A DNA stretch of 64,000 bases from an uncultured Eubacteriales bacterium (GCA_900546695.1 URDX01000007.1:331-64330); one strand, 5' to 3'. Shown: positions 13,294 to 40,151, counted from the first letter of the stretch. Numbers and translations: made by a program. Notes: generated by a model from the sequence alone, not told the origin.

Positions 13294-14090
13294 TTGTCTA
13301 ATCCTCCAAATTTGTTTATAATTAAAAGCATACCTCGCGGCAGCTCTTAATACGGTGTCAGAGGTCGGGCAAGCCAGACAAATAAAGCAACATCGAACAC
13401 ACACCTGTTGTCCGCGCCGAGACACGACGCCCACGCCGACACAAAAATGCAATATCCGATGTAAAAAAACCGGGACGAATTTCTTCGTCCGACATAATGA
13501 TACACCATTCGAACCGGTTTGTCAACTAACAAAAACTCATCAAAACAAGGTTTTAATAAAGTGTGAAAAATCCCGCGTCATCGCTCCCCGCCTTTGGTAA
13601 TTATAACGGCACACTCGACGTGTCCGCAACCAAATCGGCAGCATTTAAGGGAAATAAAGCCATAGCAGTGCCGCTCCGCCGCTGCTGCAACTGACACACC
13701 CCGCCGCATTCCACCGCGCCGCGTCCCCGCATTCCGCTGCGCACTTCTCAATTCACCATGCGTCCCTCTCCTCCGCACGCTCTGCCGTTCGCCGCATGTT
13801 CACTATCGCGTCCAACGCATTCTGCCGCGAGCCGTCACCGTCCTCGCCGTGCGCTCCGTCATTCAGGACAAAATTTTCATGTCTCGGCACGGATAATTTT
13901 CCCCGAAAACATGCATTCAATTCCTGCCGTGCCGTTTTTCACCACACAAACGCGCAAAAGTAAGCCATCGCGACAGCAAGCCGCTTTTACCGCCGCAGAA
14001 AGCCTGTCCCCGCGTGTACTATAGAAATGCCGGAGCTCGTGTATACTATAGAAAAATGCAGCATGCTGCAAAAATCTTCATTTGCGCTTA

Positions 14091-18790: not shown

Positions 18791-18794
18791 CGCA

Positions 18795-27482: not shown

Positions 27483-27716
27483 ATTATATCGCATTTTCGG
27501 ATTTTGTGTTAATTTTGACGTGAAACATATCAAATTTGTCCTGAAAAGCATTTTGATGTAAATCGCAGGAAATTTCGTGTCACTTTCGCGAGATTTTCAC
27601 ACCATATTATAAAAATCATTGCATGGCTGTCCGTTGAAAATCCCATCTTCTAATCCCCCTCCGTACAGAGAAAAACGCCGGCGCAGAAAAGGCAGCCTCT
27701 GCAGCCTGCCTTTTCA
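27483..27716 (-). repeat. ~235-bp cassette-junction module, copy 1 (terminator hairpin plus outward promoter)
   Basis: Homologous to 30903-31138 and 39822-40054. The hairpin aaaaggcag-cctctgcagc-ctgcctttt lies at 27686-27715. On the minus strand, -35 TTAACA, an 18-nt spacer and -10 TATAAT (27488-27483) point at ABC gene 25558..27396. Confidence 0.7.
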
Positions 27717-27753
27717 AATCAGATTCGTATGTTTTTTCCCGTGCCGAGCCTTA

Positions 27754-28023
27754 TTACTCTTGCGTCGAAAGGTCACACGACTCATCGTACAGCACCTGAA
27801 GAACATCTATCATCTTCTGCGCGGTATCCATCTCGGTTATAATCAGTTTTTCGTCCGGAATCACACACTCAAATTCTTCCTCCAAAGCTACTATTATCTG
27901 AATAAACGCGATTGAATCCATTCCGAGATCGGGCAGACTTTCGTCCAACTGCTCTACGGTTATTTCGAACTTTTCCGTGCTGTTGATGACTTCCAACACC
28001 TTCTCTATTGTAACTGTTTTCAT
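27754..28023 (-). CDS. acyl carrier protein-like protein (89 aa)
   Basis: The PP-binding helix-II signature is LGMDSIAFIQIIVALEEEFECVIPDEKL. Confidence 0.8.
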   Translation of the reverse strand: MKTVTIEKVLEVINSTEKFEITVEQLDESLPDLGMDSIAFIQIIVALEEEFECVIPDEKLIITEMDTAQKMIDVLQVLYDESCDLSTQE

Positions 28024-28050
28024 CGGAATTTTTCCACATGCAATACAAAT

Positions 28051-28188
28051 TCAATACTCGGATTGATAATTAAACACAAGTATATCACCAACATCGTATT
28101 TATCTTTCTGTTCAATAAATACTCTGTCATCCGGTAAAATAGCGGGATACATACTATTCCCGGTTACAGACACAAAATGTCCTTTCAT
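28051..28188 (-). pseudogene. truncated S24/S26-type peptidase fragment (45 aa)
   Basis: Not in the track because it is under 60 aa. It has a strong SD (aggaggcgacATG) and reads MKGHFVSVTGNSMYPAILPDDRVFIEQKDKYDVGDILVFNYQSEY*. It aligns with the N-terminal half of the 89-aa protein at 35815..36084 (GDSMLPT box) but stops before the His and GDN boxes. Confidence 0.6.
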
Positions 28189-28196
28189 GTCGCCTC

Positions 28197-29978
28197 CTAT
28201 TTCACATAGTTTTCCGCCTGCTTTGTAAACATCTCATAGTACTCGCCGCGGCGCGACATAAGCTCATCGTGCGAGCCCGTTTCGACGATGCTGCCGTTGT
28301 CGACAACGACTATGCGGTCCGCATCGCGGACGGTCGACAGCCTATGCGCGACCATAACGGTCGTAGTCCGATTTGCCGTGCTCATTATCAGCTTCATCAT
28401 GTTATATTCCGCGATGGGATCGAGCGCGGACGACGGTTCGTCAAGGATGAGCAAGCCGAAATCGCCCGATATGATACGCGAAAGTGCAATCTTCTGCGCC
28501 TCTCCGCCCGACACCATGATGCCCTTTTCGTCGAATTCGCGTGTCATCTCGACGTCGGCGGTGCCGTCACCCTTTTCAAGGATACCGTTCAGCCCCATTT
28601 TGGAAACGATATCGTCGACCTCTTCTCTCGAAAGATCGCCGTACATGGTTATATTGTCGATGAACGGCAGAGCGTACACATTGGCATCCTGAAAGGCAAC
28701 GCCTATCTTCCTTCTCAGCTCCAACAGATCATATTCCTTAACGGAAACTCCGTTGTACAGTATCTCTCCGCCGTTTACGTCGTACAGACGCAGAAGAAGC
28801 TTTACAAGCGTCGTTTTTCCGACGCCGTTTGCGCCGACAATCGCGACCTTCTCACCCGGCTTTATGTCAAGGCAGACCTTTGACAGTCTGAACTGCGAGT
28901 TATCATAGGAAAAATCAACGTCTCTTAAGCTGACCGAAAACGGACCGTCGGTCGGCACGGTCAGGCGCTTTTCGTCATGCGGCTCGATATCGGAGTGCAT
29001 TTCAAAAAAGGCTTTTATCTTATCGGCGTTGAGCGAGATTATCTTTGCATTCGACAGAAGCGAAATAAACTCGCTCAGCTTTGAATCAAGACGATAGAAA
29101 GCAAGTATCATCGTGATATACAGTCCGACCTCGGGAATATCGCCGTTGATTATGCTCGTTATAAGATAAACGATTATCACAAACTCCGTTATCGCCAGAA
29201 CAGCTTCCCTTACCAGTCCCAAAAGCAGTACTCTTTTTGCATATTTGTAGGTCACCTCGACCTTCGCTTCTCCGCTTCTGTCATACTCGCGAAACAGCTT
29301 GCGCGGCAGCGATGTCACCTTCAAATCGGCTGCATATTGCTTTAAATAAAAGGCGCGATGGAAATAGCCTATCTTTCGGTCTACGGGCATCAGCTCGTTT
29401 TTCTGACTGATGGAGAGCTTGTTGCTGTATTCGTTCAGAATCGCCTGAAGTATCAGCTGAACCGATTCGATAAGCAGTATCCACGGACCGATAGTCGCGA
29501 TTATGGTAAGCAGCACCGATGCGGAAAACAGATATTGAAAAAATCTGCTTATAAAATCCCGCGCTGCGTTGGTCTGACTCGTATATTCGTTTACCGCCCA
29601 TGTAAATTTGTCATAGTATTCGGGATTGTCTATGTATTTGTAATCCGTCTCGATAGCCTTCCGATAGATCTCCTTGTTCATGAGCAGGTTTATCCGAGTC
29701 TGCTTTTTCTGAAAAAACGGGTAGAAAAAGCTCGGGAACATGTGCGTCAAAAACGATATGCCGCAAACGACCGATACAAACGCCAGCATATAGCCGAGTG
29801 ACCTGCCGTCTATCAACAGATCGACCACCCGCTCGGGCAGATATACATAAATTATGTCTCCGACGGGAAACAGAATGAACGATACGACTATAGACAGAAT
29901 AAAATAGACTTTTCCGTACTTCAGATACGGCTTGCACAGCCACAGTATGTTTTTTATGTCATTGGATATGCGCTTCAT
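28197..29978 (-). CDS. ABC exporter, fused permease/ATPase (593 aa)
   Basis: TMD plus an NBD with GANGVGKTT, VSGGEAQK and LLILDEPSSALD. Confidence 0.9.
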   Translation of the reverse strand: MKRISNDIKNILWLCKPYLKYGKVYFILSIVVSFILFPVGDIIYVYLPERVVDLLIDGRSLGYMLAFVSVVCGISFLTHMFPSFFYPFFQKKQTRINLLMNKEIYRKAIETDYKYIDNPEYYDKFTWAVNEYTSQTNAARDFISRFFQYLFSASVLLTIIATIGPWILLIESVQLILQAILNEYSNKLSISQKNELMPVDRKIGYFHRAFYLKQYAADLKVTSLPRKLFREYDRSGEAKVEVTYKYAKRVLLLGLVREAVLAITEFVIIVYLITSIINGDIPEVGLYITMILAFYRLDSKLSEFISLLSNAKIISLNADKIKAFFEMHSDIEPHDEKRLTVPTDGPFSVSLRDVDFSYDNSQFRLSKVCLDIKPGEKVAIVGANGVGKTTLVKLLLRLYDVNGGEILYNGVSVKEYDLLELRRKIGVAFQDANVYALPFIDNITMYGDLSREEVDDIVSKMGLNGILEKGDGTADVEMTREFDEKGIMVSGGEAQKIALSRIISGDFGLLILDEPSSALDPIAEYNMMKLIMSTANRTTTVMVAHRLSTVRDADRIVVVDNGSIVETGSHDELMSRRGEYYEMFTKQAENYVK

Positions 29979-30110
29979 GACAAATCCCCTTTCCGATCAA
30001 TACACATGCATTTTCGCTGCTCGTATATCTTAATTCAAAACACAAGCAACTTTGGGCAAGTTTCCTGCATGTGTCAAACAGATTACTTATTTTATCATGT
30101 GATTGAATAC

Positions 30111-30184
30111 TCGCTGCAGCTCGGGTCTGCATTGCTGCGAAAGATACGAAGATGTGAAGGATATGAAAGAAAAGACAGACCCTG
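30111..30184 (-). repeat. conserved ~75-nt spacer upstream of an ABC gene (second copy at 39307-39388)
   Basis: tcgctgcagctcgggtctgcattgctgcgaaagatacgaagatgtgaaggatatgaaagaaaagacagaccct is shared almost exactly with 39307-39388. That copy has an extra gaaggatat. Confidence 0.6.
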
Positions 30185-30285
30185 CAGTCCGCCTTTTCAA
30201 ATGAATTCCGATAACTATCCTTCGCGCCGAGCACTGTTTTTACCCTTGCATTCTGCCCAAGGTATACCCGGCACTTCCGAGATTG

Positions 30286-30696
30286 TTATTCTTTAGCTTC
30301 CCGCTCGCGCGCATCCTCGTCATACTGCGCCTCGTTCGCCTCAGCCTCGCGCGCATCTCTGTCGTACTTCGCCTCGTTCGCTTCTACCTCGCGGGCATCC
30401 TCGTCGTACTGTGCCTCGTTTGCCTCAGCCTCGCGGGCATCCTCGTCGTACTGCACTTCGTTTGCCTCGGCCTCGCGGGCATCCTCGTCGTACTGCGCTT
30501 CGTTCGCCTCAACCTCGCGCGCATCTCTGTCGTACTGCACCTCATTTGCCTCAGCCTCGCGCGCATCTCTGTCGTACTGCGCTTCGTTTGCTTCTGCCTT
30601 GCGGGCATCCTCGTCGTACTGCGCTTCGTTTGCCTCGGCCTCGCGGGCGTATCTCTCGTACAACTCTTTCTTTTTTTCCGCCGTATGCATATCCAT
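30286..30696 (-). CDS. acidic tandem-repeat protein (136 aa; about eight 14-aa DAREAEANEAQYDE repeats)
   Basis: SD aggagg lies 8 nt upstream. The sequence starts MDMHTAEKKKELYERYAREAEANEAQYDEDARKAEANEAQYDRDAREAEANEVQYDRD... It has no signal peptide or TM segment. Confidence 0.65.
   Translation of the reverse strand: MDMHTAEKKKELYERYAREAEANEAQYDEDARKAEANEAQYDRDAREAEANEVQYDRDAREVEANEAQYDEDAREAEANEVQYDEDAREAEANEAQYDEDAREVEANEAKYDRDAREAEANEAQYDEDAREREAKE
30303..30645. repeat. 42-bp tandem repeat (about 8 units) inside the acidic-protein gene
   Basis: The plus-strand unit is ctcgcgcgcatcctcgtcatactgcgcctcgttcgcctcagc, with point variants. Confidence 0.8.
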
Positions 30697-30902
30697 AACA
30701 GTACCTCCTGTTTTTACCGACCGATATTCGGCTCGATATTTTTAATACGATTTTCGGCAAGGTTCTGCTGCGAGATGTTCAAACGTCACCTCGCAGCAGT
30801 TACGAATCGACGCCGATCAAGTTATACCATGCCGTTCCCGCTGTCTGCACACAGTCAAAAACGACCTCGGTATGCCGTCTCTCCGCATAAAATCCGCCAG
30901 GT

Positions 30903-31138
30903 TGATTATAGCACAACTTTGTATCTTTGTGTCAATCTTGACGCAAAACATATCAATTTTGTCCTGAAATGCATCTTTTTGTCAATGATAGAAAATTGCG
31001 TGTTTTTTCGCAGGATTTTCACACTATTTTACGGAAATTTTTGCGCGGATGCACAAGGAGAATTCCGTCTTTAAATTCCCGTCCCCGCCGCGAAAAGCGC
31101 CCGCGCAGAAAAGACAGCCTCTGCAGTCTGCCTTTTCA
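30903..31138 (-). repeat. ~235-bp cassette-junction module, copy 2
   Basis: The hairpin lies at 31108-31136. On the minus strand, TTGACA (30935-30930), a 19-nt spacer, then extended -10 TGcTATAAT (30910-30905) point at the acidic repeat-protein gene. Confidence 0.7.
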
Positions 31139-31243
31139 AACTAATTATGATAACTATCCTCCGCACCGATCACAATTTTTTCGAATCGCACATACACACT
31201 TTCTTCTGTATCTACCGATACACAAATCTATATTTTCGTTGAT

Positions 31244-32242
31244 TTAATACGATTCCCGTGCCGATATCATGTCGACGGTATCCGAAAGTATCCCTCCTTC
31301 AAGGTCGCGCATGATACGTATCTTGTCTATCATATCCGAAAGGTCCGAAGCGTTTAATGTTATAGCATAATGCAAACACCGATTCCACATTTTTTCTGCC
31401 GCAGCCGTCACCTGCTTGTAGCGCGTACTGTAATCTGCTTCAAGTCCATAATAACGCTCAAGCGTTTCAAGCCGTTCAAGCATAAATTGCTTATGTTCAA
31501 GCAACATCTTAAATGGTCGGATATCAACATCCTGTGACTCATCGAGTTTTGCAAACGTCTCAATATATCGAATGGCGCATTCATGCGCCTCTATACCGTA
31601 CACCGTAACTCCACGCTCGTCATAGTGCCACGCCGATGTCAGCAAAAGATGGTCACGTAGCTTTTCAAGAATCAGCATCGGGTTAAGTTCAAACTGTACC
31701 GACTGTGGCCGAACAGCCGCAAGCGTGCCGCAACACCCCATCCGCTCGGATGACTTTCTCGCCTTGTCAAAGCATAGCTGCGGCATTTCAAACAATGAAT
31801 ATCTCATACGCTCATCATACACAAAAATGCTGTATGTATTCTTTTCGAAGTCATACCCACAGATAAGACCGTCGTGTAGATAATGGCACATATGATATCC
31901 GGCCCTGCCCTTCATGTAATAATCATCCACTCCGCCGAAATAAACATACCACCCACGATCTATCATATTACGTATCACACGGCTGATACACCCGTCAAGG
32001 AAAGTCATAAGCAGCTGCTGACGGTCTATGTATGGATTATCTTCTATATTCGATTGACAGACATCCATGCGCAGCCTCGGCTGATCCCCCGCGAAACTCT
32101 CCGCCCGCGCCGATAAAACGAGTGAATTGTTTAAATACCAATTTCGCATACTCGGATTATTGTAAAGAATCGCTCCTATCGTACCCTGAGAATGTGATAC
32201 ACTGTAAAACGGCTTTGTTATCGGCAAACTGTTACTCTTCAT
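31244..32242 (-). CDS. hypothetical protein, 332 aa; last gene of the RiPP-like operon and paralog of 15100..16101
   Basis: Same orientation as the radical SAM genes, 158 nt downstream of them. It is followed by the module-2 terminator. Confidence 0.7.
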   Translation of the reverse strand: MKSNSLPITKPFYSVSHSQGTIGAILYNNPSMRNWYLNNSLVLSARAESFAGDQPRLRMDVCQSNIEDNPYIDRQQLLMTFLDGCISRVIRNMIDRGWYVYFGGVDDYYMKGRAGYHMCHYLHDGLICGYDFEKNTYSIFVYDERMRYSLFEMPQLCFDKARKSSERMGCCGTLAAVRPQSVQFELNPMLILEKLRDHLLLTSAWHYDERGVTVYGIEAHECAIRYIETFAKLDESQDVDIRPFKMLLEHKQFMLERLETLERYYGLEADYSTRYKQVTAAAEKMWNRCLHYAITLNASDLSDMIDKIRIMRDLEGGILSDTVDMISARESY

Positions 32243-32400
32243 TTTGTCAACTCACTTTCGTTCTTTCCATCACTTATGCAGGTAAACCCGGAATGCAAAA
32301 AAATATTCGTCTCGCGCAGATTAAAGCCACTTTCAATCTGCCTATTTGATTAATCTGTTCCAATCGGGAAAGGAATTCAAATTCTTTTCTTGATAAATGA

Positions 32401-33666
32401 CTAACGATCATCAACCATCTCCAGCATTGCATAACAAGGCTCAAAACATTTTTGACATTGTCTGATTTTAATATATTTTTTTGTGGACTCTATTATTTGA
32501 TCATTATGAAAATTTCCATGAATATGTTCATAGAGTGCATTGCTTCCCTCAACAGAGCACATCTCTTCAGGCAAAAAATGGCATGCGCGTATTTTGCCAC
32601 TGCTGGATATAACCATTGTCTCTATCCCAGACCCACATGACAAGCCTCCATTGTAAATATGTTTTTTCAAGTCGTCTTTTTTTCTCTTATATCCGTGTAA
32701 TTTCGAGGAATATGAAATTTGAATATCCAACTCATCCTTGTTTTCTCGACGCAATCTAGAAATTTCGGAAATCGCCATCTTAATTTTTTCTTTTAAAGCA
32801 TTGTTTTGATATATAGCTTCGGCTCGTCCGTAATTATCTGCAAACCCTATGATCAATCGATCTGGGTGTAACCTCTTAGCGGTATCTACAAATTCATCAA
32901 TACGATCAATTGTTGATTCACTTAACGTTAATGACAAATGTACCGAAATACCGATTTCTCGAGCAAAATCGATTGACCTCTCCAAGTTAGAATAACCATT
33001 AGCAGCCCCTGTCATTCTTTTGTATTCATTATCGTCCACCCCATACAATGAGAATTGAATTAAATACAATTTACTCAAAGACGAGGAATGAATACGGAAT
33101 TTCCACAATCGGCTCCCATTTGTAATCATTGTGAGGCGAGGTACTTTATCGGCATAAATGTCAATATACTCAATCAAATGATTGTGTAATGTTGGCTCTC
33201 CTCCGGTAAATGTCACATGTTCAACTTTGGTATCAATAACACCTATTATTTTCTCCATATCACCATCGGATATATACTTTCCCGTTGTAACCGCGGATTT
33301 ATAGCAAAAAGGGCAACGGTAATTGCAAGCTGATGTCAGTTCTATTGCAATTTGTTTCGGATAATATAATCCTTTTTCGCCCCAAAAAGTAATATTTTTA
33401 TGACTACGGCACCCCTTTGTCATAAGAACTCCGCTTTGAACAAGCCTTTTTATTCTATTCTCAACATTTTCTTCGCATTTTGTCGGTTGTGCTTGCGTCA
33501 AGCAATTTGCAATCGTGCGATTTCCATCACATAGCAGCAATATACTTATATCATCCCGATCTAGATATGCTATTGATTCGCCATAATAATCTGCTATACA
33601 ACCATCTCCGAAATAATATAGTTTTACGTTATCCCTCACTCCTATATAATAATCATAATTAACCAT
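32401..33666 (-). CDS. radical SAM peptide-modifying enzyme with an N-terminal RRE/PqqD-like domain and a reduced SPASM/twitch C-terminus (421 aa)
   Basis: The CX3CX2C motif is ACNYRCPFC at about residue 114. The N-terminus (DDISILLLCDGNRTIANC..RIKRLVQSGVL) is PqqD-like. C-terminal cysteines are SCGSG..GKIRACHF..CQKCFEPC. The gene overlaps the upstream rSAM gene by 8 nt. Confidence 0.85.
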   Translation of the reverse strand: MVNYDYYIGVRDNVKLYYFGDGCIADYYGESIAYLDRDDISILLLCDGNRTIANCLTQAQPTKCEENVENRIKRLVQSGVLMTKGCRSHKNITFWGEKGLYYPKQIAIELTSACNYRCPFCYKSAVTTGKYISDGDMEKIIGVIDTKVEHVTFTGGEPTLHNHLIEYIDIYADKVPRLTMITNGSRLWKFRIHSSSLSKLYLIQFSLYGVDDNEYKRMTGAANGYSNLERSIDFAREIGISVHLSLTLSESTIDRIDEFVDTAKRLHPDRLIIGFADNYGRAEAIYQNNALKEKIKMAISEISRLRRENKDELDIQISYSSKLHGYKRKKDDLKKHIYNGGLSCGSGIETMVISSSGKIRACHFLPEEMCSVEGSNALYEHIHGNFHNDQIIESTKKYIKIRQCQKCFEPCYAMLEMVDDR

Positions 33667-35080
33667 ATGATTCGTGATATTTCTCCTTTATTGAAATTTC
33701 TTTCGCTAATCTTGCGTATAAATTGTCATCGTATGTTTGCATATTCAAGCATAAAACTAATGAAATATTGATAATACTCCTCTGTAATTCACAAAATTCA
33801 TTGTCAGGGTGAGTTATGTCACCATTTTTCATTAGTGAATTATAATAACAATCCCCTCCGCACAAATATCTTATATCGCAATCTTTACATTGTTCGATGC
33901 TGTCAACGGTTATACCTTCAAAAAATTTAAGATTAACTTTCTTTGATGCCAAATCACCAATTATAAAGTCTGAATATCCGACAAGACTATCACATGGATA
34001 AATAGTCCCATCCGGGCAAATTGTCATTTTATTGATTCCTGCATTGCACCTTTGCCAAACTAGACTTCCAAGAATAATTCTCTTAATCAATTGTCCAAAT
34101 TGATCATTATCATTAATAATCATTCTGAGGAAGGTTAAATCTTTCTCCTTAAATGTTGCCAGTAAAAACTTTGATAATTTTTTATACTCACAAACAATTT
34201 TCTCAATACAATATTCTCCTTTGCTACGCACTAGACGTATCTGCACACTTTTAAATCCTAAACTATACAAATGATTAATTATACTAACAAAATCACAATT
34301 TTCGTTTGTTGCTGCACACAAGCCCCATATATGTTTAAATTTTTTGCTAACATTTTTATTACTTTGTATAAGCTTTATCCCCTTAACCACAGTGTCATAC
34401 GTACCTCTCCCATCAGCAAATACTCTGTTAGAATCATTATCGTCTTTTTCACCATCAAGGCTTATACCTATAGACACATTATGAGCACTTAAATATTCGA
34501 TTATTTCGTCAGTTAAAAGCGAGGCATTTGTACACAACCATATGGATATATTTTTCCCGGTTTGAGCACTAATGCTCTCACAATATTCAATAGTTTCTCT
34601 GATGATTGGGAAGCCCAACAACGGTTCGCCACCGCTCACAAAATCTATTCTGTATTGTTTCGCGTTCGGAAAAAAGTCATAAAAAAAGCAAGACAACATT
34701 TTCAACAAATTTTCTTTAGTAAATGCCCTTTCAACGCCGCCAAAGCAATCACCATGATTTCCAAAGCAATATCTACACCTAAAGTTACAACTATACACAG
34801 GGGCAAATGACAAATATGCAACGTCATTTTGAAAAATATTTTTCTTGACAATAGTATAATATTTTCGAGAAATCATACCGCAACATATTAATTCTTCAAT
34901 ATATTCATTTTCCTCATCATTCAATACTTGCCCATAAAGATATTTTTTTATTATAAAATATATTCTTTTAGTCAGTTGTACAAGCGCCCCATTTGTCAAA
35001 TTATACATATAGAAATCTTGATTATAAGAAAACAAATAATAGTTGTCTTTTAAATCATCGTTATTATTAATATACTCCAT
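33659..35080 (-). CDS. radical SAM/SPASM peptide maturase (473 aa)
   Basis: Start trimmed to the ATG at 35080 (MEYINNNDDL), with SD aggtga. The CX3CX2C motif is SCNFRCRYC at about residue 98. GGEPLL is present. The SPASM region is CNAGINKMTICPDGTIYPCD and CKDCDIRYLCGGDC. Confidence 0.85.
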   Translation of the reverse strand: MEYINNNDDLKDNYYLFSYNQDFYMYNLTNGALVQLTKRIYFIIKKYLYGQVLNDEENEYIEELICCGMISRKYYTIVKKNIFQNDVAYLSFAPVYSCNFRCRYCFGNHGDCFGGVERAFTKENLLKMLSCFFYDFFPNAKQYRIDFVSGGEPLLGFPIIRETIEYCESISAQTGKNISIWLCTNASLLTDEIIEYLSAHNVSIGISLDGEKDDNDSNRVFADGRGTYDTVVKGIKLIQSNKNVSKKFKHIWGLCAATNENCDFVSIINHLYSLGFKSVQIRLVRSKGEYCIEKIVCEYKKLSKFLLATFKEKDLTFLRMIINDNDQFGQLIKRIILGSLVWQRCNAGINKMTICPDGTIYPCDSLVGYSDFIIGDLASKKVNLKFFEGITVDSIEQCKDCDIRYLCGGDCYYNSLMKNGDITHPDNEFCELQRSIINISLVLCLNMQTYDDNLYARLAKEISIKEKYHESYG

Positions 35081-35381
35081 TTTGACCGTCACCTGCCTTA
35101 TTATCGACGATTCGTTTTGAATCCAACAGATAATCATATAGGTCTTGGATAGTGTTGATTTCAATATCGAATTCAAAAGTAATATCATACAATTCTTCTA
35201 CTCGAACAATCAATTCAACAAAATCTATGGAAGACAAATCCAAACTATCCGTGCCAACTCCATAGCCAAGATGAGTATTAAGAGTAATTGGCATCCATAA
35301 ATTATCCACTTCAAATATTTTCTTTAATATTGACTCAATATCAATTAAAAAATCCTCAACCTGAACCACGTTATTATCCAT
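35067..35381 (-). CDS. acyl carrier protein-related protein (104 aa)
   Basis: SD aaggtggag. The sequence LGYGVGTDSLDLSSIDFVELIVRVEELYDITFEFDI resembles ACP helix II. The gene overlaps the rSAM start by 14 nt. Confidence 0.7.
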   Translation of the reverse strand: MDNNVVQVEDFLIDIESILKKIFEVDNLWMPITLNTHLGYGVGTDSLDLSSIDFVELIVRVEELYDITFEFDIEINTIQDLYDYLLDSKRIVDNKAGDGQNGVY

Positions 35382-35465
35382 TGCTCCACCTTTATTTTAT
35401 ATACTTCATAAACCCATACTGTTCATCCGGATATGAAAAAATTGTTTAATATTAACATTAGTAAT

Positions 35466-35524
35466 ATTCCCCCTTCAAATTAAGAGAATAATATGTACTC
35501 AACTTTAATTTTTGAAGGGGGAAT
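35466..35524 (-). promoter_or_regulatory. strong stem-loop between the precursor-peptide gene and the ACP-like gene
   Basis: A 14-bp stem, attcccccttcaaa (35466-35479) with tttgaagggggaat (35511-35524), encloses a 31-nt loop. No T-run follows, so it is not a canonical terminator. Confidence 0.6.
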
Positions 35525-35578
35525 GTCAGCGAACATGGAATCAGTCATTAATAACATTTGACTGTTTATTCATTCCCG

Positions 35579-35695
35579 TTAGCATTTCTTATACCCGGCT
35601 GCATGCTTCGTACTCCCGGCGCAACAACAATGTGCAACAATCACAATTTCCTTAAGAAGTTTCTTGGAAATCGGTCTGCCCTTTTTGGTCTTCAT
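35579..35695 (-). CDS. candidate RiPP precursor peptide, 38 aa, Cys-rich
   Basis: Not in the track because it is under 60 aa. The SD is aaaggaggt, 7 nt upstream of the ATG (35695). Translation gives MKTKKGRPISKKLLKEIVIVAHCCCAGSTKHAAGYKKC*. It lies between the peptidase-like and ACP-like/rSAM genes in the same orientation. Confidence 0.7.
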   Translation of the reverse strand: MKTKKGRPISKKLLKEIVIVAHCCCAGSTKHAAGYKKC

Positions 35696-35814
35696 ACTCT
35701 AAACCTCCTTTCGTAACCTTTTATGTCAATCGATTTCCTGCCTTTTAAGGTTAAACCGATATAACACGCCAATCTGTAACAAATTTACACAACTGTATCC
35801 GGAGAATTTTAATA

Positions 35815-36084
35815 TTACTCAATTACTCTTCCGATAATTTTATCTACACGAACAGCAAAGCTATCCGGTTCGAGACAATTGTCGCCCTTTGTTTTTATAA
35901 ATGAATAACCATTTCTTGTGTTAATCACCTTAATGATTCGATGACAAATAATCAATTCACCGACTTTAAATACAACAATATCATCCGGATACACTTTCCC
36001 GTCTTTTACAGCTTCCACTTTATACATGTTGCCATTCTGCAGCGTTGGCAGCATGCTATCCCCTTTCGCAATGATATACACCAC
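35815..36084 (-). CDS. minimal TM-less S26B (SipW/ER-type) signal-peptidase-like protein (89 aa)
   Basis: The boxes GDSMLPT, ELIICHRII and TKGDNCLEPD match the remembered Ser/His-type signal peptidase motifs (SGSMxP, xHR, TKGDNNxxxD). GTG start with SD gaggga. There is no hydrophobic segment. Confidence 0.7.
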   Translation of the reverse strand: MVYIIAKGDSMLPTLQNGNMYKVEAVKDGKVYPDDIVVFKVGELIICHRIIKVINTRNGYSFIKTKGDNCLEPDSFAVRVDKIIGRVIE

Positions 36085-36110
36085 TATCCCTCACATTTCG
36101 CAAAAATGGA

Positions 36111-37703
36111 TCAATTTTTGGACTCAATCAGCACACGTTTATCTGCGCACTCCGTAAGCGACGGCCGATGTGTTATAAACAAAATCGTTTTGTCGCTGTC
36201 TTTAATATACCTCTCGACCGTTTTTATCGCCCTGGCATCCAGATTATTTTCCGGTTCATCCAGAAAAACAACGGGCGAATCCTTAACAATTGCACGGATA
36301 AGTGATATCTTTTGTTTTTCGCCGCCCGACAGCTCATTACCGCCGCAGGTGACCGCCCTATCATAGAGATAAGATATTTCAAATCTGTCGAGCAGCATTT
36401 TCACGGTCGAATCATCTATTGAGGGATTTGCGATTTTAATATTATCAGGAACGCTGCCGCTGAACAGATACGGATCCTGCGGAGCATAGGCAACCATCGC
36501 ACGCAGATCCGTGATGCTGAGATCCGACATACTTTTGCCGCTCAAGCTTATACTTCCCTTATAATTATCAATAAACCCCAGCAAGATTTTTAAAAGCGTA
36601 GACTTTCCGCTTCCGTTGTCGCCGCATATTGCGACCTTATCTCCTGCGTTCACGAGAAAAGACAGGGATTTTATCACCTGCTTATCCCCATAAGAAAAGC
36701 TCAGCTGCGAAACGGAAAGGTCGTTAAACTCACCGATATGCTCGCCGCCCGTGCTTTCCTCATCGTTATAAAAGAATTCGAGCCTTTCCGCGATATTGTC
36801 TATGATTGGGATCTCACGAACGATCTCGTTTATTCTTCCGATAATGGAATTAAGCACGGAATAATATCCCATCATCGCGGTAATTGCACCCAAAGAAATA
36901 TCGCCCCTCGCCGCAAGATATGTACCTACGAACAGAACAACGAGCAGACAGCCGTTATCCACAAATGAGTTTACGAATTTAGAGCCGAGGGAAAGACGCA
37001 TGCTCTTTTTCTGCGTGTTTTGAAAAAACGAGCGATAGAGCTTATCAAGGAGCCCGAGATACTTATCCCCCACCCCCATAAAAACTACATTGCACGGTCT
37101 TTCGCATATCTCCGTCTCATAGGAATGAACTCTCGATGTATACTCTCTATCCTCCTTGTGATATTTTCGCACATACTTATTGGTCAGTATGGGAACAACA
37201 AATTTCACCAGCGAGACCGACACCGTTATAACGGTATAGCTAATGCTTATGCGAGTGACGTTTATCAAAAGATAGATCAGCGTAGACGGTATGGCAAGTC
37301 CCATGGATATAACATTATTAAGCTCCTGCCACAGATCATTCGGATCCTCATCGAGCCTCACAAGCATATCACCCGCATCTATTTTTGAAGCGGATACAAA
37401 ATTCTTGCCGAGAAATTTGGATAATACCGTTCTGTCATGCGCCAGAGAATTCCTGACGAGAATTATGTCCTCGACATAATAGACGGCGGGTATGACCAAA
37501 ACCGTTATAACAAGAGCCCGCGCTAATGAAAGGACATTTTCAAGCCCGGCGGGAATATCGAGCGAAAAGACGGCATCGGTGAATTTTCCGAACACCCCCG
37601 AAGAAAACACGGACAAAACTCCGCTCAAGCTCGTTATTATCGTGTCAAGTAAAATCGGAAACCACACAAATTTAAAGACATCTCTGTATATTTTACTTTT
37701 CAC
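36111..37703 (-). CDS. ABC exporter subunit, CydC/CydD-like (530 aa)
   Basis: TMD plus an NBD with GDNGSGKST, LSGGEKQK and VVFLDEPENNLD. Overlaps the upstream ABC gene by 11 nt. Confidence 0.85.
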   Translation of the reverse strand: MKSKIYRDVFKFVWFPILLDTIITSLSGVLSVFSSGVFGKFTDAVFSLDIPAGLENVLSLARALVITVLVIPAVYYVEDIILVRNSLAHDRTVLSKFLGKNFVSASKIDAGDMLVRLDEDPNDLWQELNNVISMGLAIPSTLIYLLINVTRISISYTVITVSVSLVKFVVPILTNKYVRKYHKEDREYTSRVHSYETEICERPCNVVFMGVGDKYLGLLDKLYRSFFQNTQKKSMRLSLGSKFVNSFVDNGCLLVVLFVGTYLAARGDISLGAITAMMGYYSVLNSIIGRINEIVREIPIIDNIAERLEFFYNDEESTGGEHIGEFNDLSVSQLSFSYGDKQVIKSLSFLVNAGDKVAICGDNGSGKSTLLKILLGFIDNYKGSISLSGKSMSDLSITDLRAMVAYAPQDPYLFSGSVPDNIKIANPSIDDSTVKMLLDRFEISYLYDRAVTCGGNELSGGEKQKISLIRAIVKDSPVVFLDEPENNLDARAIKTVERYIKDSDKTILFITHRPSLTECADKRVLIESKN

Positions 37704-39282
37704 GTATGACCCGTCCTTCCCCTACCTCATAAACCGTTTTCGCAAGATCCGTCAAACTTTCCTCGTGAGTTATGATGATCGTTCCGCGTGTGCGCTCAGA
37801 GAGCAGCCTGCGAAGGATATCACAGCCGTTTTTATCAAGAGAATTTGTCGGCTCATCCAGAATCATCAGTTGTGGGTCGCATGCAAACGCCAGTGAAAGA
37901 AATACCTTCTTTCTCTCTCCGCCCGACAGACTCCCTATCGTCTGTGACAATATACCCTCGCCGATATTAAACATACCTAAAACAGCGAACGCCGTCTCTG
38001 ATGCAGCCTCATCGAGAACCATGCCAAACAGCTCCCCGGGTGTCAGATTATACGGCGGATCTTCCTGCGTCAGATAGAATATCTTGTGCGGAAAGTTGTC
38101 GTAACCGATATCCTTCGGCGCTACTCCGCCGACGCATATATCTCCCCCATCGCAGTTGACTATCCCCAGCAGCAGCCTTACTATTGTGGATTTTCCCGCG
38201 CCGTTCACGCCCCTGAAAACCGTAATGCCATCCGAGTCAATGCTAAGATCCGCTTCATTCAATATCTGCTTATCGCCTAAAGTACAAGAAACCTTCTTAA
38301 ACCGTACGTCTGTATTATCCGACAGCAGGTCGTTCTTTTTGCTTTCCGCGCCGAATCGCGACATTCTTTTCTCTGCAACACGGACAAGCTCAAATTCGGG
38401 AATCAGACCGAACATCGAGCTTACAGATGAATACAGACTTCCCGACAAAGCGATAGCCTGTATCCCGGCTTCGACGGTAATGTGCTTCGTAATAACAAAC
38501 AGCCCGACAATGGCATATGTACCGTATGTCAAGGCATTTGAAACAACGCCCGATATGGCAGTCTCCGTGCGATATGTCGCCTGAAGCCTATCGGCGATCT
38601 TTCGCATTTTGCGATGCAGAAGCTTCATCCGCCCCATAGACCATGCGGTAAGATCAAATAATTTTATCGTTGCAAAGCCGTTGTAACACTCCAATGCGCA
38701 GTTTGAAATCTGACCTTCCGTCTCCTTGCAGCTCGTATCCAGCTTCCCGCAAAAGAACCTGATATACAGCGGCGGAATGATCTGAATAACCGAAACGCCC
38801 AGCATTATGCCCGCAAGTATCGGAAATTGAATACACAAATATGTCAGATAAGCCACTATCGTGACAACGGTGGAAATAAGAGAAGGGTACAGATCTACGT
38901 ACTTAGATGTGACCTTCCCGAAATCGCTGTTTAATACTACCCCGGCTTCGCCTGCCGTAGAACGATACAAAAAATCAAGCGGAGATGATAAGTACCGTTT
39001 GTATAAAAGCATCTTGCATGTATGAAGAGAATTTGAGACCTTTTTTTGATACAGATAACCCGTAACAAGGTCAAATATATTAAACACCAAAAGAATCGCT
39101 AAAATCGTCAGGCTGTTGTTTATAACCTCGCGATAATCACCGCGTGTGGCGGAATCCACCACATCAGCCATCAATCTTGCATTTACTATCCCGATCGGCA
39201 CTGACACAAGCTTTAATAATGTCGATGCAACGCTCACGGGCTTTAAAACAGAGAAAAATATATCTTTTGTTCTTTCCATCAA
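37693..39282 (-). CDS. ABC exporter subunit, CydC/CydD-like (529 aa)
   Basis: TMD plus an NBD with GVNGAGKST, LSGGERKK and LMILDEPTNSLD. Confidence 0.85.
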   Translation of the reverse strand: MMERTKDIFFSVLKPVSVASTLLKLVSVPIGIVNARLMADVVDSATRGDYREVINNSLTILAILLVFNIFDLVTGYLYQKKVSNSLHTCKMLLYKRYLSSPLDFLYRSTAGEAGVVLNSDFGKVTSKYVDLYPSLISTVVTIVAYLTYLCIQFPILAGIMLGVSVIQIIPPLYIRFFCGKLDTSCKETEGQISNCALECYNGFATIKLFDLTAWSMGRMKLLHRKMRKIADRLQATYRTETAISGVVSNALTYGTYAIVGLFVITKHITVEAGIQAIALSGSLYSSVSSMFGLIPEFELVRVAEKRMSRFGAESKKNDLLSDNTDVRFKKVSCTLGDKQILNEADLSIDSDGITVFRGVNGAGKSTIVRLLLGIVNCDGGDICVGGVAPKDIGYDNFPHKIFYLTQEDPPYNLTPGELFGMVLDEAASETAFAVLGMFNIGEGILSQTIGSLSGGERKKVFLSLAFACDPQLMILDEPTNSLDKNGCDILRRLLSERTRGTIIITHEESLTDLAKTVYEVGEGRVIREK

Positions 39283-39306
39283 AACCGCCTTTGAAATATG
39301 GATATC

Positions 39307-39388
39307 TCGCTGCAGCTCGGGTCTGCATTGCTGCGAAAGATACGAAGATGTGAAGGATATGAAGGATATGAAAGAAAAGACAGACCCT
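39307..39388 (-). repeat. conserved spacer, copy 2 (see 30111-30184)
   Basis: Near-identical to 30111-30184, with a 9-nt internal duplication. Confidence 0.6.
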
Positions 39389-39481
39389 AAAGCCCACCTC
39401 TTTATTCGGATAGCAAGTCTCCGTGCAACCCCAGTTATTTTTTTATATCGCCATGTATTTGCCTAAGGTACATTTCACGTC

Positions 39482-39608
39482 TCAGAATACATCTTTCTTA
39501 GCTTCCCTTTCACATGCATATTTTTTGTACAGCACCTCGCTTACTTCCGCTTCCCGTGCAAAATCTCTCGTACAACTTTTCATTTTTCTCCTTCGTATGC
39601 TTATCCAT
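39482..39608 (-). pseudogene. frameshifted single-repeat homolog of the acidic repeat protein
   Basis: The same SD and start context as 30696 (aggaggtactgttATGga). It reads MDKHTKEKNEKLYER and then, after a T-run (atttt), the homologous frame DFAREAEVSEVLYKKYACEREAKKDVF* is +1. The in-frame product is only 32 aa (39510..39608). Confidence 0.5.
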
Positions 39609-39821
39609 AACAGTACCTCCTACTTTTGCAGACCGATACACGGCTCGGTATTTTTTATACGTTTTCGGCAATGTTCTGTCGCGAAATGAGCAAATGTCAC
39701 TTCGCAACGGTTACGAATCGACGCAATTATCAGGCTATAACTTTCCTCACGATTCACACTTGCGCTCTGCCACAGATGACTTGGAAGGGTATCAAATCCC
39801 CGTATTCATTTCGTTTGATTT

Positions 39822-40054
39822 ATTATAACACAATTTCAGTTTTTGTGCTGATTTTGGCGTGAAACGTATCAATTTTGTCCTGAAATGCACCTTTTTGTAA
39901 ATCGCAGGAAATCGCGTGTTTTTTTTACGGGATTTTCACACCATTTTATAGGAATCTTTGCGTAGCTGCGAGAGGAGAATTCCGTCTTTAAATTCCCCTC
40001 CCCGCTGCGAAAAGCGCCCGCGCAAAAAAGCCAGCCTCTGCAGCCTGCCTTTTC
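39822..40054 (-). repeat. ~235-bp cassette-junction module, copy 3
   Basis: The hairpin lies at 40024-40053. The extended -10 TGtTATAAT (39827-39822 on the minus strand) points at the frameshifted repeat-protein gene and the RiPP-like operon. Confidence 0.7.
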
Positions 40055-40151
40055 AGAACGCCTTCAACAGCGGTATTATTTTTCCTCGTCGGCGTTATAC
40101 TCCCCCGTCGCTGTTATGCTTCCGCATCGCCGTTATACTTTCACGTCGCCG

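What the first reader, a model, noticed from the sequence alone, without database searches (positions are those of the whole stretch)
27483..40054. Three copies of a ~235-bp terminator-plus-promoter junction module that delimit the cassettes
Copies at 27483-27716, 30903-31138 and 39822-40054 align along their whole length. Read on the minus strand, each starts with the hairpin aaaag(g/a/c)cag-cctctgcag-(c/t)ctgcctttt, followed by conserved blocks:
- ggaatttaaagacggaattctcc in copies 2 and 3;
- gtgtgaaaatc.cg;
- caggacaaaa(t)ttgatatgttt.

Each ends in a -10 TATAAT with a TTGACA-like -35 (copies 1 and 2; copy 3 has no clear -35) or a TGn extension (copies 2 and 3), firing into the next gene. A partial fourth copy (hairpin plus ttcaaatgaattccgataactatcc) lies at 30165-30240.

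A portable insulator-plus-promoter unit copied together with gene cassettes is unusual. The conserved internal blocks could be operators for a shared regulator.
Basis: seen in the sequence. Interest (0 to 1): 0.6.

Follow-up and report, generated by a model that had tools for sequence, protein, structure and literature searches.

The report
Duplicated promoter region of peptide cassettes
Three look-alike ~234-bp stretches between genes are real, and are best read as recently copied promoter regions, each preceded by a terminator hairpin, of a small repeat-peptide gene cassette in a strain-variable peptide/exporter island of a human-gut bacterium: an ordinary local duplication, not a new mobile insulator element.

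Summary
Three minus-strand copies (27483-27716, 30905-31138, 39822-40055) are 75-83% identical (nhmmer E 1e-77 to 1e-80). An extra homologous hairpin lies at 30169-30198 and a decayed one at 39374-39402.

Each copy is a 12-13-bp terminator-like hairpin, then ~200 bp ending in an invariant TATAAT. Homology stops 0-13 nt after the TATAAT.

- It is not coding, not a detectable structured RNA, and matches no Rfam family.
- It has no terminal inverted repeats or target duplications.
- It was found nowhere outside this species' locus.

Copies 2 and 3 belong to a larger duplicated cassette: module, 5'UTR, repeat-peptide gene, hairpin, 70 nt. Flanking proteins are at most 21-35% identical where alignable, so the non-coding copies are young.

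Ten strain variants show that hairpin and promoter core are separable. They also show recombination inside the module. The large strain indels do not break at the modules.

The "conserved blocks" and a 21-bp direct repeat are no stronger than chance. A shared operator is therefore possible but unproven.

Verdict: paralogous terminator-plus-sigma-A-promoter junctions spread by local duplication and recombination. This is a new member of a known kind, of low to moderate interest.

The parts
27483..27716 (-). Module copy 1. It runs from the terminator hairpin to the TATAAT and lies between the ACP gene (27754-28023) and the ABC exporter gene 25558-27396. It has no peptide gene.
   Evidence: Orthologous copies occur in 9 strain variants.
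30905..31138 (-). Module copy 2. It lies between the 332-aa gene (31244-32242) and the 136-aa repeat-peptide gene (30286-30696).
39822..40055 (-). Module copy 3. It lies between a truncated ABC gene (40152-40754) and a frameshifted one-repeat version of the peptide gene (39482-39608).
27686..27715 (-). Copy 1 terminator-like hairpin: GAAAAGGCAGGCTGCAGAGGCTGCCTTTTC followed by TGCG.
   Evidence: The minimum-free-energy fold of the 51-nt stretch around it is -21.5 kcal/mol and includes a short 3-bp second stem. The stem has 12 pairs and a 4-U tail.
31108..31137 (-). Copy 2 terminator-like hairpin.
   Evidence: (-15.9 kcal/mol for the 51-nt stretch folded)
40025..40054 (-). Copy 3 terminator-like hairpin, followed by a TTTTTT tract.
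30169..30198 (-). Hairpin of the same family.
   Evidence: (-18.1 kcal/mol, z -4.3)
39374..39402 (-). Decayed fifth hairpin of the family, after the decayed peptide gene of cassette B.
27483..27512 (-). Copy 1 predicted promoter: TTAACA-18-TATAAT. The inferred transcription start is near 27476.
   Evidence: (11 of 12 matches, the best in the region). The start site is inferred, not measured.
30905..30935 (-). Copy 2 predicted promoter: TTGACA, a 19-nt spacer, then TGC-TATAAT (extended -10). The inferred start is near 30898.
   Evidence: and the sequence shown
39822..39851 (-). Copy 3 predicted promoter: a poor -35 (TCAGCA) and TGT-TATAAT (extended -10). The inferred start is near 39815.
   Evidence: and the sequence shown
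27592..27602 (-). Invariant block B, GTGTGAAAATC. It is also at 31014-31024 and 39931-39941. It sits 3-4 nt after a second -10-like TA(T/A)AAT.
27523..27546 (-). Block C, TTTCAGGACAAA(A/T)TTGATA(T/C)GTTT, about -70 to -47 from the inferred start. It is also at 30946-30969 and 39862-39885.
30110..31138 (-). Cassette A: module, 208-nt 5'UTR, 136-aa repeat-peptide gene, hairpin, and a conserved 70 nt.
39306..40055 (-). Cassette B, a paralogue of cassette A. Its peptide gene is decayed to one repeat and frameshifted.
13551..13886 (+). Possible decayed, expanded fourth copy on the other strand. A block-B-like sequence lies at 13551-13577 and a block-C-like sequence at 13862-13886 (TTCAGGACAAAATT, 14 of 14 exact), about 285 nt apart.
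   Evidence: Each match alone is weak. The shared order and strand are suggestive only.

Best explanation
The three modules are paralogous copies of one intergenic region: the promoter region of a small repeat-peptide gene cassette, together with the terminator hairpin that precedes it.

The cassette is promoter module, ~200-nt 5'UTR, repeat-peptide gene, terminator hairpin. It was duplicated recently inside a strain-variable RiPP-type (ribosomally made, modified peptide) and ABC-exporter island. The host is an uncultured spore-forming human-gut Firmicute.

The copies then recombined with each other. In copy 1 the 5'UTR and peptide gene are absent, and the same promoter region is joined to the native leader of an ABC exporter operon.

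**Mechanistic reading (inferred, not shown)**
- The hairpin stops transcription from the upstream operon.
- The TATAAT box restarts transcription 6-8 nt downstream, exactly where inter-copy homology ends. It is helped by a -35 in c1 and c2 and by a TGn extension in c2 and c3.
- The ~150 bp upstream of the -35 is A-tract-rich. It may carry regulator sites shared by the three promoters, but this is not demonstrated.

The similarity is explained mainly by recency of copying and by recombination or gene conversion, not by measurable sequence constraint.
For: **Real paralogous DNA**
- 75-83% identity over 234 nt, E about 1e-77.

**Terminator and promoter anatomy**
- Stems of 12-13 pairs. The 51-nt stretches around the three module hairpins and the cassette-A peptide hairpin fold at about -16 to -21.5 kcal/mol.
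- The hairpins lie 38-106 nt after stop codons and are followed by U-rich tails.
- TATAAT is invariant in 11 of 12 distinct sequences from strain variants.
- c1's promoter is the best sigma-70-like site in 16.5 kb.
- Homology among copies ends 0-13 nt after the -10.

**Cassette duplication**
- c2/c3 homology spans 565 bp, plus a further 70 nt at 94%.
- The identity profile is: upstream flank 39%, module 82%, first 90 nt of the 5'UTR 51%, rest of the 5'UTR 84%, CDS start 76%, post-hairpin 88%.
- A fourth context, L028, has a copy-1-like core followed by a decayed 5'UTR and peptide gene.

**Young copies in old surroundings**
- ABC proteins next to the modules are only 21-35% identical.
- ACP (acyl-carrier-protein-like) and S24 peptidase pairs give no BLASTP hit.

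**Recombination among copies**
- L034's module is copy-3-like in its 5' half and copy-2-like in its 3' half. Its cassette is 91% identical to window cassette A but 85% to cassette B.
- Diversity among copy-1 orthologues is higher in the core (pi 0.036) than at third codon positions of the adjacent ABC gene (pi 0.023).

**Not something else**
- No frame is open in all copies, and substitutions show no codon periodicity (29/20/27).
- Consensus folds are weak on both strands: -20.7 and -22.6 kcal/mol for 237 columns, with covariation terms of +0.88 and -2.12 kcal/mol.
- No Rfam match, even at E<=1.
Against: - No transcription start or 3'-end data were available, so promoter and terminator activity are inferred from consensus only.
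- The U-tails are short (UUUUCUG in c1 and c2), so termination may be partial.
- c2's -35 has a 19-nt spacer and c3 has no -35, so these promoters could depend on an activator.
- A second -10-like box (TATAAT/TAAAAT) just upstream of block B is conserved in all copies. It could be the real or an additional start site.
- Blocks B and C are invariant in all 12 distinct sequences, and all core polymorphisms avoid them. The chance of that is about 0.02 on my rough estimate. This hints at constraint that a pure 'recent copy' model does not need.
- B-like and C-like sequences recur at 13551-13886 on the other strand.
- The rest of the genome could not be scanned, so more copies elsewhere are not excluded.
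Confidence: 0.6

Rival explanations
1. Shared cis-regulatory module. The ~150 bp upstream of the -35, especially GTGTGAAAATC and TTTCAGGACAAA-TTGATA-GTTT, is kept similar by selection because one regulator binds all three promoters. That regulator would co-ordinate the peptide gene and the exporter operons, as in pheromone-controlled bacteriocin loci. This overlaps with the best explanation rather than excluding it.
For: - Blocks B and C are invariant in all 12 distinct sequences from four genomic contexts.
- None of the segregating sites among copy-1 orthologues falls in them.
- B-like and C-like sequences recur in the same order on the plus strand at 13551-13886.
- Two XRE-family helix-turn-helix regulators lie in the window, at 4350-5024 and 5308-6561.
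- A 9-11-nt repeat with a 21-bp period overlaps the -35. This is the geometry of LytTR sites such as SilA's two 10-bp repeats with an 11-bp spacer (PMC2766830).
Against: - Invariant runs of 10-12 nt are close to the longest run expected by chance at 68% column identity over 237 columns. My estimate is about 11 (data).
- The 21-bp direct repeat is matched or beaten in 131-140 of 300 shuffles for c1 and c2.
- No LytTR regulator or histidine kinase was found among the 28 window ORFs scanned against Pfam.
- Overall diversity in the core exceeds synonymous-site diversity.
- The related strain L018, which carries a different cluster at this place, has no module at all.
Confidence: 0.25
2. Mobile or recombination-site element. 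The hairpin-plus-module would be a miniature mobile repeat (Correia, RUP or BOX-like), or a site used by a recombinase to shuffle cassettes (integron attC-like).
For: - The copies are far more similar than the genes they sit between.
- Homology starts exactly at the hairpin in three contexts.
- Hairpins of this family occur five times in 13 kb and nowhere else in the window.
- Recombination within the module is seen in L034.
Against: - There are no terminal inverted repeats and no target-site duplications at the ends (sequence).
- Hairpin and core are separable.
- All copies are in one orientation within one island.
- No matches were found in one genome per species of GTDB, in JGI metagenomes other than the same locus, or in IMG/VR, plasmids or phages.
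- Strain indel breakpoints are not at the modules.
- No integrase or transposase was found among the Pfam-scanned ORFs or in the precomputed Pfam lists of the strain loci.
Confidence: 0.06
3. A non-coding RNA gene or structured leader encoded by the module, on either strand.
For: - A -10-like box precedes block B in every copy.
- A short inverted repeat follows block B: GAAAATC..N8-11..GATTTYC. Its inner bases differ between copies (read).
Against: - No Rfam match at the gathering score or at E<=1.
- RNAalifold consensus is weak, and the covariation term is +0.88 and -2.12 kcal/mol.
- No terminator lies between the putative upstream start and the downstream TATAAT.
- Single-nucleotide indels are tolerated.
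Confidence: 0.04
4. Remnant of a duplicated coding sequence.
For: None was found beyond the similarity itself.
Against: - Every frame on both strands has 1-4 stop codons in each copy.
- Variable columns fall 29/20/27 over the three phases.
- One-nucleotide indels separate the copies.
Confidence: 0.02

Closest known systems
Ordinary operon junction: intrinsic terminator followed by a sigma-A (sigma-70-type) promoter, duplicated along with a gene cassette
   Same: - A GC-containing stem-loop with a U-rich tail lies after a stop codon.
- TATAAT is present, with a TTGACA-like -35 and/or a TGn extension.
- Homology ends at the expected transcription start.
   Different: - The same junction sequence occurs three times at 75-83% identity.
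- It sits next to genes that are otherwise only 21-35% identical as proteins.
Conserved promoter regions in front of each operon of peptide-pheromone-controlled bacteriocin loci (the pln locus of Lactiplantibacillus plantarum, and blp and sil of streptococci; SilA site in PMC2766830; pln and blp from my own knowledge)
   Same: - Several operons of one peptide/exporter island are preceded by look-alike upstream regions.
- A repeat with a 21-bp period abuts or overlaps the -35.
- One of the promoters is weak in its -35.
   Different: - In those loci only two 9-10-bp repeats are shared, and a LytTR response regulator and kinase are encoded in the locus.
- Here about 234 bp of paralogous DNA is shared.
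- Here the repeat is not better than chance.
- Here no LytTR or kinase gene is in the window.
Small intergenic repeat elements that carry promoters or terminators (Neisseria Correia elements, pneumococcal BOX and RUP, enterobacterial ERIC; from my own knowledge)
   Same: - Repeated non-coding DNA between genes.
- Hairpin-forming, with outward promoter potential.
   Different: - No terminal inverted repeats or target duplications.
- Only 3-4 copies, all in one island and in one orientation.
- None was found in other genomes or collections.
RiPP/lantibiotic precursor gene with its own strong promoter and a leaky terminator before the export genes (nisA-type layout; from my own knowledge)
   Same: Cassettes A and B have the order: promoter, small peptide gene, hairpin, ABC exporter genes.
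   Different: - The 136-aa product is nine 14-aa acidic repeats.
- Its only database relatives are N-terminal domains of S24 peptidases.
- It is therefore not evidently a precursor peptide.

Membership tests
Intrinsic (Rho-independent) terminator | Stable GC-containing stem-loop shortly after a stop codon | tested here: met
   - Stems have 12-13 pairs.
- The 51-nt stretches around the three module hairpins and the cassette-A peptide hairpin fold at -15.9 to -21.5 kcal/mol. The copy-3 hairpin alone gives -12.9 (centroid).
- The hairpins lie 38-106 nt after stop codons.
Intrinsic (Rho-independent) terminator | Run of U immediately after the stem | tested here: inconclusive
   - The tails are UUUUCUG (c1, c2), UUUUUUG (c3) and UUUUCUUUC (30169).
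- Only the hairpins at 30198-30169 and 39402-39375 passed the scan's rule of 5 T in 8.
Intrinsic (Rho-independent) terminator | RNA 3' ends at the site | not testable with these tools
   No transcriptome data were available.
Sigma-70/sigma-A promoter | -10 hexamer close to TATAAT | tested here: met
   TATAAT is exact in all three window copies and in 11 of 12 distinct strain sequences.
Sigma-70/sigma-A promoter | -35 hexamer close to TTGACA at 16-18 nt, or a TGn extended -10 | tested here: met
   - c1 has TTAACA at 18 nt.
- c2 has TTGACA at 19 nt plus TGC.
- c3 has a poor -35 but TGT.
Sigma-70/sigma-A promoter | Mapped transcription start | not testable with these tools
   The start is inferred only from the point where homology ends.
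LytTR-type response-regulator operator | Two 9-10-bp direct repeats with a ~21-bp period next to the -35, more similar than chance | tested here: not met
   - A repeat exists: CAAAATTGATA / CAA(A/G)AT(T/C)(A/G)(A/G)CA, matching 7-9 of 11.
- Repeats of 9 of 11 occur in 131-140 of 300 shuffles.
LytTR-type response-regulator operator | Cognate LytTR regulator and histidine kinase in the locus | tested here: not met
   None was found among 28 window ORFs scanned or in the precomputed Pfam lists of the strain loci. The rest of the genome was not searchable.
Miniature mobile repeat (MITE, Correia, RUP, BOX) | Terminal inverted repeats and target-site duplication | tested here: not met
   The ends read TGAAAAGG... 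and ...TATAAT. The flanks differ and carry no duplicated bases.
Miniature mobile repeat (MITE, Correia, RUP, BOX) | Many dispersed copies in the genome or in related genomes | tested here: inconclusive
   - There are no copies elsewhere in the 64-kb window, apart from a doubtful remnant at 13551-13886.
- None was found in GTDB species representatives, in JGI metagenomes (only the same locus), in IMG/VR, or among plasmids or phages.
- The full genome of this species could not be scanned.
Integron attC-type cassette junction | Imperfect inverted-repeat recombination site at each cassette end, promoterless cassettes, integrase nearby | tested here: not met
   - The module carries its own promoter.
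- There is no overall inverted-repeat structure.
- No integrase was seen.
- Strain indels do not break at the modules.
Structured non-coding RNA (Rfam family or a new one) | Match to a covariance model, or covariation-supported consensus structure | tested here: not met
   - No Rfam match at the gathering score or at E<=1.
- Covariation terms are +0.88 and -2.12 kcal/mol.

The most novel reading that the evidence does not exclude
The module is a lineage-specific 'plug-in' control region with two roles.

- A dedicated, still unidentified regulator recognises blocks B and C. This places the repeat-peptide gene and at least two unrelated ABC exporter operons under one signal, each insulated by its own terminator.
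- The same ~234-bp homology serves as the landing pad by which peptide cassettes are moved in front of different exporter operons. This would drive the strain-to-strain mosaicism of this RiPP island.
Probability: 0.12. Interest if true: 0.5.

Novelty: new member of a known kind. Interest (0 to 1): 0.25.

Why it matters
**What follows if the reading is right**
- Three operons of one peptide/exporter island start from near-identical promoters. They are therefore probably expressed alike, which helps in predicting how this uncultured gut bacterium switches the island on.
- The copies give a natural series of variants of one terminator-plus-promoter junction that could be tested as parts for gut Clostridia.

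**What the strain comparison shows**
- Non-coding junctions and a small peptide cassette are copied and recombined much faster than the exporter and enzyme genes around them.

**What it does not do**
- It does not reveal a new kind of element or mechanism.

Tried and rejected
1. **Coding remnant.** Rejected by six-frame translation and substitution phase.
2. **Structured RNA.** Rfam gave nothing at the gathering score or at E<=1. RNAalifold on both strands gave nothing convincing.
3. **LytTR-like 21-bp direct repeat.** It looked attractive by eye, but shuffles do as well. No LytTR or kinase genes were found.
4. **Conserved blocks as footprints.** Run lengths of 10-12 are near the chance expectation for 68% identity. 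Only the avoidance of these blocks by orthologous polymorphisms gives weak support.
5. **Ancient tandem duplication of whole operons as the source of the repeated junction.** Rejected, because flanking proteins are 21-35% identical or unalignable while the modules are 75-83% identical as DNA.
6. **More distant copies.**
   - The genome-contig scan gave 6 chance hits in unrelated phyla.
   - The metagenome scan gave one true hit, identical to copy 2, and two chance hits.
   - Viral contigs, plasmids and phages gave nothing.
   - Loci around more distant homologues of the 332-aa protein (L018-L020, L024) and of the repeat peptide (L035) have no module.
7. **Repeated junctions as a general habit of such islands.** Self-comparison of L018 and L024 shows none.
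8. **Residual 5'UTR or peptide homology downstream of copy 1.** Only an 11-nt match (AAGATATACGA) was found. It is shared with the leader of the ABC593 gene, so it belongs to the exporter genes' own leader.
9. **PlcR box, cre, CRP, sigma-H, ECF and TcdR-type promoter consensus sequences.** Compared by eye from memory with blocks B and C. None fits. This was not a formal test.

Full report
**1. Observation**

- Pairwise identities are 75.1% (c1/c2), 79.0% (c1/c3) and 82.8% (c2/c3), with 4-5 gap columns.
- A profile built from them finds exactly three full-length matches in the window, at E 2.6e-80 to 9.9e-77. It also finds a hairpin-only match at 30168-30199 (E 0.0011).
- The 21-nt block CAGGACAAANTTGATANGTTT occurs three times, against 0.01 expected.
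- The hairpin family AAAAGGC(A/G)G(G/A)CTGCAG(A/G)G(G/T)CTG.CTTTT occurs at 27715, 31137, 40054 and 30198, and in decayed form at 39402. It occurs nowhere else in 64 kb.

**2. Anatomy**

Read 5'->3' on the minus strand, each copy has these parts.
- (a) A 30-nt hairpin of 12-13 pairs with an A-run before it and a U-rich tail after it. It lies 38-106 nt after the stop codon of the upstream gene. The 51-nt stretches around the three module hairpins and the cassette-A peptide hairpin fold at about -16 to -21.5 kcal/mol.
- (b) A GC-rich linker.
- (c) An AT-rich ~160-190-nt core. It holds a -10-like TA(T/A)AAT, the invariant GTGTGAAAATC (block B), and TTTCAGGACAAA(A/T)TTGATA(T/C)GTTT (block C, about -70 to -47).
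- (d) The promoter itself: a -35 (TTAACA in c1, TTGACA in c2, poor in c3), a TGn extension (c2, c3) and an exact TATAAT.

Module GC is 40-43%, against 50% for the window. Homology between copies ends 0-13 nt after the TATAAT, about where transcription would begin.

**3. What it is not**
- Every reading frame on both strands is interrupted in every copy. Substitutions fall 29/20/27 over the three phases. The copies differ by single-base indels. It is not a coding remnant.
- Rfam has no match at the gathering score or at E<=1.
- Consensus folding of four sequences gives weak structures: -20.7 and -22.6 kcal/mol over 237 columns, with covariation terms of +0.88 and -2.12. A structured RNA is not supported.
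- The ends carry no inverted repeats and no target duplications.

**4. Context in the window**

The minus-strand gene order, from high to low coordinates, is as follows.
- A truncated ABC gene (40152-40754).
- Copy 3.
- A frameshifted one-repeat peptide gene (39482-39608), then a decayed hairpin.
- ABC 529 and ABC 530.
- An S24 peptidase (35815-36084).
- A 38-aa Cys-rich ORF (35579-35695).
- An ACP-like gene.
- Two radical SAM genes.
- A 332-aa gene (31244-32242).
- Copy 2.
- A 136-aa peptide gene made of nine 14-aa repeats (30286-30696), then a hairpin.
- ABC 593.
- A truncated S24 gene (28051-28188).
- ACP (27754-28023).
- Copy 1.
- ABC 612, ABC 614 and ABC 602.
- groES/groEL.

Copies 2 and 3 are part of a larger duplication. 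It spans 30582-31138 versus 39493-40055 (565 bp, 74%) and 30110-30179 versus 39306-39375 (94%).

Along that alignment the identities are:

| Segment | Identity |
|---|---|
| Upstream flank | 39% |
| Module | 82% |
| First 90 nt of the 5'UTR | 51% |
| Rest of the 5'UTR | 84% |
| Start of the CDS | 76% |
| After the peptide gene's hairpin | 88% |

The duplicated unit is therefore a ~1-kb cassette: module, 5'UTR, repeat-peptide gene, hairpin, 70 nt. Copy 1 shares only the module, plus 13 nt.

About 45 nt upstream of the hairpin is also homologous between copy 2, the hairpin at 30169 and, weakly, copy 1 (D17). So "3'UTR + hairpin" is itself a repeated sub-unit.

**5. Age of the copies**

The proteins encoded next to the modules are only distantly related.
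- ABC593 versus ABC529, ABC530 and ABC612 is 25-29% identical.
- All ABC pairs next to the modules fall at 21-35%.
- The two ACP-like proteins give no BLASTP hit at 1e-3, and neither do the two S24 proteins.

Non-coding DNA at 75-83% identity cannot date from the same event. The repeated junction is therefore not the trace of an ancient tandem duplication of whole operons. The peptide cassette and its promoter region were copied later, or have been homogenised by gene conversion.

**6. Relatives elsewhere**
- Exact-pattern scans of one genome per species of GTDB gave six chance hits in unrelated phyla.
- JGI metagenomes gave one true hit, identical to copy 2.
- IMG/VR, plasmid and phage collections gave nothing.
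- The locus itself is found in human-gut metagenome assemblies.
- The window also carries sporulation genes yabP and yabQ. The host is therefore a spore-forming Firmicute. Its name was not determined.

Looking up contigs that encode the same ACP or the paralogous 333-aa protein gave ten strain variants, with 12 distinct module sequences. They show five things.
- (i) Hairpin and core are separable. L022 has ~170 nt of unrelated, internally repeated sequence between them. L028 has a copy-1-like core behind a different terminator, followed by a decayed 5'UTR and peptide gene.
- (ii) Recombination occurs inside the module. L034's upstream copy is copy-3-like in its 5' half and copy-2-like in its 3' half. 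Its cassette is 91% identical to window cassette A and 85% to cassette B.
- (iii) The big differences between strains do not break at the modules. These differences are loss of the radical-SAM block, insertion of another radical-SAM/S8 block, and replacement by a lasso-peptide-like block. They break at window 35723/30048, 23599/23333, 40317/44995 and 32253.
- (iv) Strain L018, whose island carries a different cluster here, has no module at all.
- (v) Self-comparison of L018 and L024 shows no repeated junctions of their own.

**7. Is there constraint on the internal blocks?**

Against:
- With 161 of 237 columns invariant among the three copies, the longest invariant runs are 12, 12, 11 and 10. 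The run length expected by chance is about 11, on my calculation.
- Nucleotide diversity among copy-1 orthologues is higher in the core (0.036) than at third codon positions of the neighbouring ABC gene (0.023). The 86-nt leader is almost invariant (0.003). This fits import of variants from paralogous copies better than purifying selection.
- A 9-11-nt repeat with a 21-bp period, the second repeat overlapping the -35, caught my eye because it is the geometry of LytTR sites (SilA: two 10-bp repeats with an 11-bp spacer; PMC2766830). However, equally good repeats occur in 131-140 of 300 shuffles of c1 and c2.
- No LytTR or kinase gene is among the ORFs scanned.

For:
- Blocks B and C and the -10 are invariant in all 12 sequences from four contexts. 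None of the core polymorphisms falls in them. The chance of that is roughly 0.02 on my estimate.
- B-like and C-like sequences, including a 14 of 14 match TTCAGGACAAAATT, recur in the same order on the plus strand at 13551-13886.

A shared operator is therefore possible but not shown. Phased A-tracts (CAAAAT at 0, 21, 33 and 42 nt in c1) offer a non-specific alternative, namely a curved upstream element. That is my reading of the sequence.

**8. Most likely working**

Shown:
- The copies are paralogous DNA.
- They have terminator-like and promoter-like anatomy.
- The cassette was duplicated.
- The copies are young.
- They recombine among themselves.
- Hairpin and core are separable.

Inferred:
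- The hairpin ends the upstream transcript.
- The TATAAT promoter starts a new one near 27476, 30898 and 39815.
- In cassettes A and B that transcript carries a ~200-nt 5'UTR and the repeat-peptide gene. It is partly stopped by the next hairpin before the ABC genes.
- In copy 1 the same promoter has been joined to the exporter genes' own leader. That leader shares AAGATATACGA with the ABC593 leader.

**9. Comparison with known things**

It works like an ordinary terminator-promoter operon junction. In its distribution it resembles the look-alike promoter regions of multi-operon bacteriocin loci.
- It fails the tests for a LytTR operator, a miniature mobile repeat, an integron attC site, a structured RNA and a pseudogene (see the membership table).
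- It is a new instance of a known phenomenon: local duplication and recombination of a promoter-bearing cassette in a hypervariable secondary-metabolite island.

**10. Verdict**
The terminator-plus-promoter anatomy and the copying with a cassette hold. A discrete portable insulator unit that delimits cassettes does not, and operators are unproven.
- Novelty: new member of a known kind. Interest: 0.25.

Noticed in passing
window 30286-30696 (-); P0023/P0024; L035 2345-2869: The 136-aa ORF driven by copy 2 is nine tandem 14-aa acidic repeats (YDEDAREAEANEAQ; 42-nt DNA period). Its only database relatives carry two such repeats as the N-terminal domain of an S24-family peptidase in a different radical-SAM cluster. 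In this window the S24 domain is a separate gene downstream of the ABC genes, in both cassettes. Its function is unknown, and it is not evidently a RiPP precursor.
   Followed up: partly
window 30765-30799 (-) and 39675-39710 (-); L034 ~625-660; L028 ~730-765: A 13-bp hairpin sits in the 5'UTR of the repeat-peptide gene, about 70-100 nt upstream of the ATG. It is kept in four diverged copies, with two pairs changed on both sides (C-G to U-A, G-C to A-U). It has no Rfam match. It may be a cis-regulatory leader.
   Followed up: partly
window 35579-35695 (-): A 38-aa Cys-rich ORF (MKTKKGRPISKKLLKEIVIVAHCCCAGSTKHAAGYKKC) lies directly upstream of an ACP-like gene and two radical SAM genes (33659-35188, 32401-33666). 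It looks like the precursor of a radical-SAM-modified peptide.
   Followed up: no
window 21487-51001: Twelve ABC exporter genes (fused permease-ATPase type, one of them truncated) lie within 30 kb. They are 21-46% identical to each other. In strain L022 two adjacent paralogues (23661-25505 and 25558-27396) have recombined into one hybrid gene.
   Followed up: partly
L018, L025, L027-L034 versus window 23333-44995: The island is a strain-level mosaic.
- Some strains lack the radical-SAM block (joint at window 35723/30048).
- Some carry an extra radical-SAM/PP-binding/S8-peptidase block between window 23599 and 23333.
- Some have a lasso-peptide-like block (PqqD, HPr-kinase-like, Asn-synthase-like, NTP_transf_5) instead.
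   Followed up: partly
window 13551-13886 (+): Block-B-like (GTGTGAAAAATCCCGCG) and block-C-like (TTCAGGACAAAATT) sequences lie in the same order on the plus strand, about 285 nt apart, in a 1.6-kb intergenic region. They may be a decayed, expanded fourth module copy.
   Followed up: partly
window 14140-14553 and 18379-18792: Two ~98-100% identical copies of a group II intron D1-D4 fragment (Rfam RF02001, 111 bits each) lie on the minus strand. They flank the 333-aa/ABC606 gene pair.
   Followed up: no
window 15100-16101 (+) versus 31244-32242 (-): The 332-aa protein of unknown family just upstream of copy 2 has a 79%-identical paralogue on the other side of groEL. Homologues (34-83% identity) always sit in radical-SAM or lasso-type peptide clusters. 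It has no significant Pfam match (the paralogue gives only a sub-threshold DUF5028 hit, E 0.0085).
   Followed up: partly
window 40070-40150 (-): Three to four ~20-nt tandem repeats (GTATAACGGCGACG...) lie between the stop codon of the truncated ABC gene and the copy 3 hairpin.
   Followed up: no
window 40152-40754 (-) and 28051-28188 (-): Two truncated genes are present: a 200-aa C-terminal half of an ABC ATPase, and a 45-aa N-terminal stub of an S24 peptidase. They are signs of ongoing decay and rearrangement in the island.
   Followed up: no
L022 20745-20915 (-): In one strain, ~170 nt holding two ~45-nt direct repeats (CAAAGATACGGCACATGT.TCAAA..GGCGCGG...) is inserted between the copy-1 hairpin and its promoter core. 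The sequence is not found elsewhere in the data held.
   Followed up: partly
window 2187-2279 (+): A glycine riboswitch aptamer (62.9 bits) lies upstream of a sodium:alanine symporter gene (2425-3993). This is ordinary.
   Followed up: no
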